A DNA stretch of 64,000 nucleotides from Chiloscyllium plagiosum (taxonomy: Eukaryota). The stretch is from NCBI RefSeq assembly GCF_004010195.1, contig NC_057734.1:28435176-28499175 (forward strand), written 5' to 3'. The notes below the pieces were generated by a model. The model ran no database searches. It was not told where the DNA came from and saw only the letters and a list, made by a program, of their open reading frames with translations. Shown one piece after another: positions 7,008-48,770 of the stretch. The position numbers were made by a program, and so were the translations under genes. Position 1 is the first letter of the stretch, and each line of letters begins with the position of its first letter.

Positions 7008-7100
7008 TCTGAGGGTCACTCAACCTGAAAGGTTAACGGTGATTTCTCTCCACAGATGCTGCCAGACCTGCTGAGCTTTTCCATCAATTTCTGCGTTTGT
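7008..7100 (+). mobile_element. Penelope-derived terminal-repeat fragment with decayed hammerhead
   Basis: ctgagggtcactcaacctgaaaggttaac...ctctccacagatgctgccagacctgctgagc. Confidence 0.65.
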
Positions 7101-8149: not shown

Positions 8150-8462
8150 GGTCACAGAATCTCACAGTGTAGAAGCAGGCCTTCAGCCTATCGAATCCAC
8201 ACTGACCCTCTGCAGACCATCCAACCCAGACCCACTCTCTTACCCTATAGCTCTGCATTTCCTAAAGCTAATCTATTTAGCCTGCACATCCCTGGACAGT
8301 ATGGGTGATTTAGCATTGACAATCCATTTAACCTGCACATCTTTGGACTGTGGGAGGAAACCCATGCAGACACAGGGAGAACGTGCAATTCTGCACAGCC
8401 TAAGGGTGGGATCAAGCCCGGGTCCCTGGTGCTATGAGACTAACCACTGAGTCACCATGTGG
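8150..8462 (-). mobile_element. HE1-type V-SINE
   Basis: Homologous to 1593-1883; tRNA-like head near 8462. Confidence 0.85.
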
Positions 8463-8567
8463 TCTCTCTGATCTGACTACCCCAATTCTATTTTCCAGTC
8501 CTTGGCCCATAGCCCTGGTGGCCATGGCAATGCAAGTTAATATCTAAACAGTGCTAAAATGTTATGA

Positions 8568-8793
8568 GAAAGTGAGGACTGCAGATGCTGGAGATCAGAG
8601 CTGAAAAATGTGTTGCTGGAAAAGCGCAGCAGGTCAGGCAGCATCCAAAGAGCAGGAGAATTGACGTATCGGGCATAACCCCTTCTTCAGGAATGATTCC
8701 TGAAGAAGGGGTTATGCCTGAAACGTCGATTCTCCTGCTCCTTAGATGCTGCCTGATCTGCTGCGCTTTTCCAACAACACATTTTTCAGCTCT
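8568..8793. mobile_element. Fold-back Penelope-derived element, family A
   Basis: About 98-bp inverted arms 8597-8694/8696-8793 with a 1-nt spacer; TSD ctaaaatgttatga at 8554-8567 and 8792-8805. Confidence 0.85.
8700..8727 (+). ncRNA. Minimal hammerhead ribozyme motif (family A, weakened stem II)
   Basis: CTGAAGA A GGG gttatg CCT GAAA CGTC; the opposite-arm copy has GAAA changed to GATA. Confidence 0.6.
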
Positions 8794-8841
8794 AAAATGT
8801 TATGACCCAATGAAGTTATTTTTGAAGTGCAGAAATTAAAG

Positions 8842-33821: not shown

Positions 33822-35496
33822 ACTAAAAAGCTGCCAGATGCTGCCAGACCTGAGTTTCTCCAGACATTTGACCAGCTATTGGCCAAGAGTTTATTGACAA
33901 ATGACCTGCCCGATAATGATCAGAAGAGCCTCCCTGTCACTTCCCAAAATGCTGAGTAGCCAATCCTGTCCTTCTCCCTGAGATGCCATTATTAATGGGG
34001 ATAATGTCTTAGTCTTATGACTCTGTACTAGACATGCACACTTAGCATTGCCACATGGAACTAAAATAACCCTGATATCAAAATTAAAGTACTGTCATTA
34101 AGACAAGATGTTCACCAAATTGCAATCTGAACAACTCACTGCCAATATCCACCACTCTGTAAACTGTAGTAATCTGACAGTTGTTTTGATATTAAAGGGG
34201 CATACTGTATTAGCGTAATGCTCTTCATTACTTAACTGAAAAAATACACCAATTGCATTTTAACAAATTCATATAATTTTAAAGATTGTCCAGTGATGAC
34301 AGACCACGCAGTTGAGGTCAACACCCTTTCAGTTTCTGAGGCAGCTCACTCAATTGTGCTGTACTGCTCAGCTCTCCCATTTCCTTATACTAAATTAATA
34401 ATATGTCTATGTTTGAACTCTCCAAGGTGTCATTGTTATACTAAGAATAATAGCCTGTGGGCATTTTCAGCCCATACAACAATCACAACATTCCCTCCTG
34501 CTAACAGCCTAATGCTGTGCCTTTAAGGATCATGTTCAACTTTCCAGTTGATAGTTAATTCACAATGTTACCAAGATAGTATCAATGTAAAACAACATTT
34601 AGTAAAAATATATTAGCTTACTGGTGCTTTTTGGGGAAATAAAGATGTAGAATGTATAATTCAACTACAATCATTTTTTTTTAATTTTCAGGTTAATATA
34701 AAATGAGGAAGGACAGGTGGAAACAGAGAAAATATGTCTATTGTCAAGAGATATGGCCAAGCACTGGAAAAATGGAAGCATCAATTAGTTTGACAATGTG
34801 ACAAGCTAAGAGCATTACCAGCAGCCTTGAACATGACTTCAGATATATTGCTCACCATGGATCTGGCTGGCAGTCGTTTTGAGTAGTCAAATAATAGAGC
34901 AAGGAATAAAAAAACCCTGCACCTACCTTAGATCCTGAAGCTTCTGTTCTCTACCACCAGCACAAGGTGAATTTCTGAAGCCTTAACATTTATTGTTCTT
35001 TAACATTTAAGTGACAAGTGTTTTGAGTTAGATTTGCAAACTTGCCGCATATTCATGAAAACTTCTCAGTGAAACTCAAAATAAAATGTTGCACAGACTG
35101 TGAAGATAAATGGGTTCAAAGAAAGCCTTAGCTCAAGTCCCATTGATTCCCTTTTCAAGTGCATACAACACAGCACTTTTATAGAAAATCAATGGGAATT
35201 TCACTGTGTTTAATTGGAAAATTGGAAGCATAGTCCTTAGCCTCATGTAAAATCTTTCCAATAAGTGTTTCAGTTAGCAATACAATAGCCCCTGGTTCAC
35301 CTTTCAGATGAACATAAAAAGTGTGCTCCTATGTTCAGTTTACATTTGTACTGATTTATAAAATCTAATGTTAGGTAATAATGCAGTTTTATTTGAGCCA
35401 AATCTTGTTGGGGAAGTTAGAACTGTGCTAACCCTTAGTTGGACCTGTCTCAATACAGCTTAGTTTGAATAGAATTTGTATAGTAACTGCAATGAT

Positions 35497-38467: not shown

Positions 38468-38666
38468 GGCAAATGTGAGGACTGCAGATGCTGGAAATCA
38501 GAGTCTGGATTAGAGTGGTGCTGGAAAAGCACAGCAGGTCAGGCAGCCTCTGAGGAGTAGGAAAATCGACGTTTCAGGCAAAAGCCCTTCATCAGGTCGA
38601 TTTTCCTACTCCTCGGATGCTACCTGACCTGCTGTGCTTTTCCAGCACCACTCTAATCTAGACTCT
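38468..38666 (-). mobile_element. Fold-back Penelope-derived element, family A
   Basis: About 70-bp inverted arms; imperfect TSD ctgaataagtcacag (38453-38467) / ctgagtaaatcacag (38665-38679). Confidence 0.85.
38568..38595 (-). ncRNA. Minimal hammerhead ribozyme motif (family A)
   Basis: CTGATGA A GGGC tttt GCCT GAAA CGTC. Confidence 0.7.
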
Positions 38667-48483: not shown

Positions 48484-48770
48484 GAGAATGCAGAGAATGC
48501 TGGAGAAACTCAGCAGGTTTGGCCATATCTGTGGAGAAGGAACAGTTAATGTCTGCCACGGCCATCTTCAGAACGTCTTCAGATATGCTTCCGAGATGTG
48601 ACAAATACAGTTCGTGTGGAGCATAAATAACAAATAATTAAAGCAAGAAGTTTTGGAAGTACTCAACAGGTCAAGCACTGTTTGTGGAGAGAAGCAGAGT
48701 GCTGTCTGATCTACTGAGTATTTCTCGCATTTCTGTTTCATTACTGCTGGATGTCCAGTCTTTGCAATAG
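48484..48770. mobile_element. Old Penelope-derived terminal fragments
   Basis: aatgctggagaaactcagcaggtttggccatatctgtggagaagg and a related collapsed fold-back. Confidence 0.55.

What the first reader, a model, noticed from the sequence alone, without database searches (positions are those of the whole stretch)
8568..8793. Second, sequence-distinct hammerhead fold-back family with near-perfect 98-bp arms
Seen: a hairpin with a 1-nt spacer and a 14-bp TSD. The core CUGAAGA-A-stem-GAAA-CGUC uses a different helix III palindrome (ACGU versus AGCU in family B), a different stem II and different flanks, but the same architecture. Both arms share the GGGGTTAT variant, whereas the family-A copy at 38568 has GGGC. 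Inference: covariation between families argues for a real RNA structure, and the shared variant suggests both arms were copied from one template or homogenised afterwards.
Basis: partly seen in the sequence, partly recalled or inferred. Interest (0 to 1): 0.7.

Follow-up and report, generated by a model that had tools for sequence, protein, structure and literature searches.

The report
Fold-back end of Penelope-like retrotransposon
This hairpin is an ordinary dead insertion made of two head-to-head copies of the short ribozyme-bearing end of a Penelope-like jumping gene, a layout already described for that class, though its anatomy hints at how such elements are pasted in.

Summary
The hairpin is real: 98-nt arms (7 mismatches), 1 nt between, flanked by a 14-bp direct repeat. 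The left arm carries a 29-31-nt extension that the right lacks. That is the published layout of Penelope-like element (PLE) insertions: pseudo-LTR with minimal hammerhead, adjacent inverted copy, one-sided 'tail', variable TSD. It is not a new family beside 'family A' but a subfamily of it (103/123 identical to the 38.5-kb copy; unrelated to family B beyond the core), and high-copy (58,570-71,292 contigs per DNA run). The hammerhead fold is supported as a class: helix I, not in my search pattern, covaries across 36 unrelated clusters. This copy is probably dead: the left core is broken and any read-through RNA folds as one hairpin. The shared GGGG looks inherited from one source; 7 private differences argue against later homogenisation. 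Best mechanism (inferred): both nicked target strands prime reverse transcription at the two sites bounding the tail, and the cDNAs are joined. No PLE ORF of this family was found. The scan noted the same pattern on two other pieces of this genome.

The parts
8554..8567 (+). Left target-site duplication (14 bp at most; last 2 nt also match the element's end)
   Evidence: family edge at 8566
8566..8596 (-). PLE 'tail', 29-31 nt, on the long arm only
   Evidence: present in copies at 33.5, 37.0, 38.5, 52.0 kb; family depth starts at 8566
8597..8694 (-). Long arm: pseudo-LTR body, sense on the minus strand
8663..8690 (-). Minimal type I hammerhead core of the long arm, broken (GATA for GAAA at 8668; helix I pair 1 lost at 8662)
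8695..8696 (.). Head-to-head junction; 8695 and probably 8696 continue the long arm's template
   Evidence: records aligning to 8695-8696; inferred
8696..8793 (+). Short, tail-less arm: inverted second copy ending at the inner edge of the tail
8700..8727 (+). Minimal type I hammerhead core with all conserved core letters (CUGAAGA, extra A, helix II, GAAA, ACGU palindrome, C17); predicted cut after 8727
   Evidence: layout as in PMC4209133
8792..8805 (+). Right target-site duplication (first 2 nt also match the arm's end)

Best explanation
A dead-on-arrival, ORF-less insertion of a high-copy Penelope-like retrotransposon end. Steps: (1, shown by sequence) the target was cut on both strands 10-14 bp apart in AT-rich DNA. 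(2, inferred) A PLE protein acting in trans used both free 3' ends as primers on uncut element RNA from one source copy, one starting at the outer edge of the tail and the other at its inner edge, each with about 2 nt of microhomology. (3, inferred) Both cDNAs ran to about the same stop a few bases upstream of the hammerhead core, probably the RNA's 5' end, and were joined head to head. (4, shown) The arms then drifted apart by 7 point changes, about 3.5% each. The hammerhead is a passenger that belongs to the parent element's RNA. Class identity is about 0.9 likely; the twin-priming detail about 0.55.
For: Layout matches published PLE insertions: inverted 5'-truncated copy, 30-40-bp tail on one end, TSD. 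In vitro a PLE protein cuts and extends both strands, prefers AT-rich DNA, starts RT at two sites that bound the tail and uses uncut RNA. All 7 of 7 inverted insertions examined in the window (families A, B, D) have one tail, and tail-less arms stop at the tail edge (template 94-100 in A, 93-96 in B); 6 of 7 have a 10-15-bp TSD. Either arm can be the longer one: tail arm at 38.5 kb (from template 4 vs 30), tail-less arm at 52.0 kb (57 vs 89), 8.8 kb (7 vs 42), 27.7 kb (1 vs 6) and 56.7 kb, so neither is always a copy of the other. Fold points vary between copies (joints). Outside loci: 30 of 121 have an inverted repeat at the motif; of 29 rows analysed 9 have a TSD of 11-16 bp, and in 9 of 9 it abuts one arm and lies 30-53 nt beyond the other. 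L006 holds the same motif in inverted repeats around an RVT_1 + GIY-YIG ORF.
Against: No RT/GIY-YIG ORF linked to this family was found: tblastn of the window best E 0.36-0.82, no whole genome held, no relatives in the collections. The Pfam hits in L006 are below the curated cut-offs (23.4 vs 29.6 and 19.8 vs 22.6 bits), and L006 shares only the motif with the finding. Unequal arms could also come from later deletions across a perfect hairpin. This copy's arms are nearly symmetric, which fits snap-back just as well. Helix I of family A is weak (3 of 4 pairs) and the isolated arm does not fold as a hammerhead by MFE. 20 of 29 outside rows gave no TSD. The RNA run laid 0 reads, so no transcript end was tested.
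Confidence: 0.8

Rival explanations
1. Same PLE origin, but the palindrome arises by self-priming or snap-back: one cDNA (or an antisense template) folds back and is copied, the endonuclease resolves it at the tail edge, and unequal arms come from later deletions.
For: Proposed for rotifer PLEs from palindromes at inverted junctions (PMC3846280); tail attributed to endonuclease resolution. Explains near-symmetric junctions here and at 24.4 kb, and shared variants.
Against: Needs extra deletions in 5 of 7 window insertions, in both directions; filler-like spacers at the 8.9- and 27.8-kb junctions look more like end joining; the in vitro two-site, two-strand result explains the tail without it.
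Confidence: 0.3
2. A non-autonomous element that spreads as a fixed hairpin unit (fold-back MITE-like or retrozyme-like), with its own master copy.
For: Very high copy number; 5' ends recur at about the same place (8694-8696, 37136); head-to-tail joints of the whole unit exist (8694 to 8566/8569, table 5c), and retrozymes are reported as PLE derivatives.
Against: Junctions differ between copies; single-arm copies with a TSD exist (37.0 kb); ends are not inverted because of the tail; TSD 10-17 bp and variable; the finding is not tandem.
Confidence: 0.1
3. The arms were homogenised after insertion by gene conversion or hairpin repair.
For: Both shared variants (arm positions 9 and 16) lie in the 23 identical positions next to the junction.
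Against: 23 identical positions have P about 0.18 by chance; 7 private differences remain; L119 shows a shared variant far from the junction with no private ones.
Confidence: 0.1
4. The copy is a selected, working ribozyme or hairpin RNA gene of the host.
For: Right-arm core letters intact; strong hairpin.
Against: Left core broken; helix II pair 4 lost in both arms; CpG-type decay; the hairpin would bury the core; no Rfam match at this place; no evidence of transcription (no test).
Confidence: 0.03

Closest known systems
Complex insertions of canonical EN+ Penelope-like elements: pLTR + adjacent inverted copy + one-sided tail + TSD (PMC3846280; bioRxiv 10.1101/2021.04.23.441226)
   Same: Head-to-head inverted ends, 29-31-nt tail on one end only, variable TSD, strong 5' truncation.
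   Different: No ORF and no second direct pLTR here; whole insert about 228 bp; parent element not identified.
Minimal type I hammerheads of metazoan PLE pLTRs (PMC4209133)
   Same: CUGANGA, extra base before helix II, G-C first pair, GAAA, palindromic helix III without loop, short helix I; that paper also reports dual motifs 100-700 bp apart on opposite strands.
   Different: Helix II is 3-4 bp rather than 7-8 bp of the Schistosoma examples; one core is mutated; activity untested.
Poseidon_Ac (PAc) in vitro system (PMC11167929)
   Same: Two RT start sites bounding the tail, both strands cut and extended, AT-rich target, uncut RNA as template.
   Different: That work reports no homology between primer and template; here 2 nt match at each end. 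In the parts read it does not model the inverted pair.
Non-LTR retrozymes (bioRxiv 10.64898/2026.07.22.740005)
   Same: Short, non-coding, type I hammerhead, PLE-derived.
   Different: Retrozymes are head-to-tail tandems; this is head-to-head.
L1 twin priming (recalled, no call)
   Same: Second nicked strand primes a second cDNA, giving an inversion with intact TSD.
   Different: In L1 the two pieces hardly overlap and the second start site varies; here it is fixed at the tail edge and the arms overlap almost fully.

Membership tests
Penelope-like element (EN+), truncated insertion | Minimal hammerhead in the terminal repeat | tested here: met
   class covariation
Penelope-like element (EN+), truncated insertion | About 30-40-bp tail on one end only | tested here: met
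   29-31 nt here; 7 of 7 inverted insertions in the window
Penelope-like element (EN+), truncated insertion | Adjacent inverted 5'-truncated copy with variable junction | tested here: met
Penelope-like element (EN+), truncated insertion | Variable-length TSD in AT-rich DNA | tested here: met
   14 bp with 3 G+C here; 10-17 bp in 7 of 8 insertions tested; others less AT-rich
Penelope-like element (EN+), truncated insertion | Same end flanks an RT + GIY-YIG ORF in a full-length copy; clade placement | tested here: inconclusive
   none in window; no genome; only an unrelated family (L006) shows the link, below Pfam cut-offs
Type I hammerhead ribozyme (active) | Conserved core letters | tested here: inconclusive
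   met in right arm, not met in left arm
Type I hammerhead ribozyme (active) | Self-cleavage after C17 | not testable with these tools
   needs an assay; RNA run laid 0 reads
Rfam hammerhead families | Covariance-model match | tested here: not met
   4 matches at E up to 1 in the window, none a hammerhead, none at this place
Non-LTR retrozyme | Head-to-tail tandem units each with a hammerhead | tested here: not met
   inverted pair; tandem joints exist in a few other copies
MITE / fold-back DNA transposon | Inverted repeats at both termini, fixed short TSD, fixed internal structure | tested here: not met
   tail breaks terminal symmetry; TSD and junction vary

The most novel reading that the evidence does not exclude
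PLE fold-backs are made by fixed-site twin priming: a dimeric PLE protein primes both target strands at the two RT start sites that bound the tail, on the 5'-proximal pLTR of uncut RNA, and both cDNAs run off at an RNA 5' end a few bases upstream of the hammerhead core. This would explain tail, inverted copy, TSD and the excess of about 130-nt copies in one step, with no separate non-autonomous family. Support: junctions fall at -16 to +3 of the core's first C in 12 of 28 distinct outside loci (0 of 20,000 uniform simulations; the sample is biased because one arm had to hold the motif), none at the cleavage site within 1 nt, and either arm can be longer. Tens of thousands of copies in this genome make it directly testable.
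Probability: 0.4. Interest if true: 0.55.

Novelty: new member of a known kind. Interest (0 to 1): 0.22.

Why it matters
The element itself is ordinary repeat DNA. Its value is as one data point on an open question: how Penelope-like elements make their tandem and inverted structures, which the papers read call undefined. A genome with very many short, TSD-bounded fold-backs lets twin priming be told from snap-back by counting. It also warns that such hairpins can pass for MITEs or microRNA precursors (weak MIR533 match at 38.5 kb).

Tried and rejected
Rfam scan: no hammerhead match. Whole genome not held. Family-specific patterns found nothing in viral contigs or metagenomes; the general motif found nothing in viral contigs. 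67 GTDB matches to a 19-mer are chance: longest blastn alignment 38 nt. tblastn with six ORFs from motif loci found no PLE protein in the window; the region upstream of the 56.7-kb copy has no long ORF. Cap-derived G as the spacer: dropped, because other copies align through 8695-8696. Arms starting at the ribozyme cut: 0 of 28 outside loci within 1 nt; one family B arm (8.94 kb) starts at template 42 against a cut after 39, not enough. Frequency of GGGG against GGGC could not be read table 3. In alignment A2 the two family B rows are one column out of register on the 3' side, so understates their pairing; helix II pairs 1-3 were fixed by the search pattern and are no test. Look-ups of earlier notes by sequence and by place gave nothing. 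The complex 33.5-kb copy was left out of the 7-insertion count.

Full report
Setting. The window is repeat-rich eukaryotic DNA with decayed LINE pieces (RVT_1 and endonuclease hits in 2 of 5 ORFs scanned), no tRNA and no whole genome held. I take it for a shark: that rests on recall of the repeat types and on the scan's earlier notes, not on a test of mine.

Observation. The arms 8597-8694 and 8696-8793 are the longest inverted repeat of the window, 91 of 98 complementary, folding at -177.6 kcal/mol with 0 of 200 shuffles as good. A 14-bp direct repeat lies at 8554-8567 and 8792-8805 and nowhere else in the window; random boundaries gave 0 of 3000. Laying three DNA runs on 8450-8700 placed 65,377, 71,292 and 58,570 contigs (of 23.6, 30.8 and 25.2 million records), with the family edge at 8566. 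So the last GA of the left repeat and the first CT of the right repeat are shared with the element, and the TSD is 10-14 bp. Only the right arm has an intact core; the left has GATA for GAAA, a private change (about 99% of depth has the other letter).

Family. The long arm is 103/123 identical to the 38.5-kb copy, 102/126 to 37.0 kb, 100/113 to 33.5 kb, and matches the short 52.0-kb arm 37/37; against family B it aligns over only about 11-25 nt. It is therefore a subfamily of 'family A', distinct only from B. A shared 19-mer occurs 14 times in the window at up to 3 mismatches against 0.04 expected, tying in older relatives at 4.6, 7.0 and 56.7 kb.

What it is. Papers describe exactly this layout for Penelope-like elements. 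Seen: 12 passages of bioRxiv 10.1101/2021.04.23.441226 (inverted 5'-truncated copy, 30-40-bp tail usually on one end, mechanism undefined); abstract, 11 passages and Discussion of PMC3846280 (inverted pLTR, 31-bp tail, 8-10-bp TSD, self-priming proposal); parts 1-2 of 4 of PMC4209133 (minimal hammerheads in pLTRs, palindromic helix III, dimer model, low activity, dual motifs on opposite strands); parts 1-2 of 4 of PMC11167929 (both strands cut and extended, two RT start sites bounding the tail, uncut RNA as template, protein-assisted cleavage); part 1 of 5 and 10 passages of bioRxiv 10.64898/2026.07.22.740005 (retrozymes as PLE derivatives). No supplements were read; motif tables there could include this family. 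In the window, 7 of 7 simple inverted insertions (finding, 38.5, 52.0, 56.7, 8.8, 24.3, 27.7 kb) have one tail and a tail-less arm that stops at the tail's inner edge; 6 of 7 have a TSD, and a single-arm copy at 37.0 kb has a 17-bp TSD and the same 5' end as the finding. I left the complex 33.5-kb copy out of this count.

Is the hammerhead real? They share only the motif with the finding. Of 127 motifs, 124 had full context and fell into 36 clusters. With one per cluster, helix I pairs 1-3 were Watson-Crick in 25, 33 and 27 of 36 (shuffle means 14.8, 11.1, 12.0; 0 of 5000 reach them), pair 4 in 17 of 36 (43 of 5000), pairs 5-8 at chance; slid controls gave 0.15-0.35 against 0.71. The tool count on 36 representatives plus 4 window motifs agrees (covariation 0.477, 0 of 500; slid 0.06-0.14), with the caveats that shuffles ignore relatedness and two rows are out of register. 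L006 has this motif in inverted repeats around a 595-aa frame with RVT_1 and GIY-YIG hits, both under the curated cut-offs; of 11 frames scanned, one more (L061) had a weak GIY-YIG hit. Between window families A and B, helix I pair 2, helix II pairs 3-4 and the helix III palindrome change on both sides. Against: family A's helix I has 3 of 4 pairs, the isolated arm's best fold is not a hammerhead, Rfam sees nothing, and in place the long hairpin would bury the core. The motif class is real; this copy is probably inactive.

Shared variant. The arms differ at 7 sites; by comparison with relatives and laid depth, 3 changes fall on the long arm and 4 on the short, several at CpG. Two states are shared and absent from the 4 comparison sequences: A at arm position 9 and G at 16. 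The TTAT loop is a subfamily trait. The G is not in the 33.5-, 37.0- or 38.5-kb copies nor in the loose-end consensus of 200, 208 and 189 contigs, though those contigs are selected for not fitting, and the table of other letters stops at 8668. Parallel origin of one transversion is expected about 0.005 times under my assumed rate. Among 4 outside fold-backs tested, 3 had no shared variant and L119 had 1 shared and 0 private. One source template fits; later homogenisation is not needed, though both shared states lie in the 23 identical positions by the junction (P about 0.18).

How it was made. Junctions vary: opposite-strand joints at 8612-8694, 8644-8685, 8661-8696, 8600-8651 and 8600-8664, each in 1-2 contigs per run, and arm starts differ among window copies. 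So hairpins form at insertion rather than spreading as one unit. The tail arm reaches further in the 38.5-kb copy, the tail-less arm in four others, and two are near symmetric; one-way copying of one arm from the other would need later deletions in both directions. With the in vitro facts of PMC11167929 the simplest reading is twin priming from the two start sites (inferred; about 0.55 against 0.3 for snap-back). Outside, 30 of 121 loci have an inverted repeat at the motif; of 29 rows analysed (28 distinct), 9 have an 11-16-bp TSD, always abutting one arm and 30-53 nt beyond the other, and 20 have none. The inverted arm starts at -16 to +3 of the core in 12 of 28, never within 1 nt of the cut site; the sample is biased towards intact motifs and the uniform null is crude. 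This suggests run-off at an RNA 5' end just before the ribozyme, on uncut RNA; untested, since the RNA run laid nothing.

Novelty. A new member of a known kind. PLE membership rests on four met features; the defining ORF could not be tied to this family. I did not find twin priming proposed for PLEs or this family described in searches (listings only, apart from the five papers above); the library lacks most subscription papers, and repeat databases could not be searched. The scan reached the same class reading on two other pieces of this genome, after I had stated mine; that is not independent support. Interest 0.22.

Noticed in passing
window:56675-57031: Older related insertion (family D) with 13-bp TSD: short tail arm and a long tail-less arm that keeps about 190 nt of C-rich sequence upstream of a decayed hammerhead; the best in-window handle on the parent element's upstream region.
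   Followed up: partly
window:8830-9041: A family B fold-back with 12-bp TSD only 36 nt from the finding; its tail arm starts about 3 nt after the predicted ribozyme cut and the junction has filler-like bases.
   Followed up: partly
window:33483-33860 and 34620-34740: Family A copy with a 7-nt inverted stub, a 119-nt tandem duplication, and an adjacent unique-looking stretch repeated in inverted form about 0.9 kb away (63 nt at 100%); may be captured flank or an assembly artefact.
   Followed up: no
window:8566-8694 (table 5c): Contigs in X1 and X9 join 8694 to 8566/8569 with 3-6 letters between, at depth about 100: probably head-to-tail repeats of the whole 129-nt unit, retrozyme-like.
   Followed up: no
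L025, L047, L062, L077, L120: A group of outside motifs has G at position 17 with a C-U mismatch at the first helix I pair and pairing shifted outward (G17 in 9 of 124 motifs); a possible hammerhead variant.
   Followed up: no
L024, L031, L041, L043, L064, L085, L101: Single-arm copies of one outside family end either at the inner or at the outer tail edge, as two RT start sites predict.
   Followed up: partly
window:4620-4712, 7010-7100, 48490-48745: Older family C pieces with decayed hammerheads sharing the 19-mer core of family A.
   Followed up: no
window:29613-31850: Long decayed LINE copy with endonuclease and RT frames, interrupted by an assembly gap of Ns.
   Followed up: partly
L007:3527-4159: A DNA_pol_B_2 fragment beside the PLE of L006/L007, suggesting insertion next to or into a Polinton-like element.
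   Followed up: no
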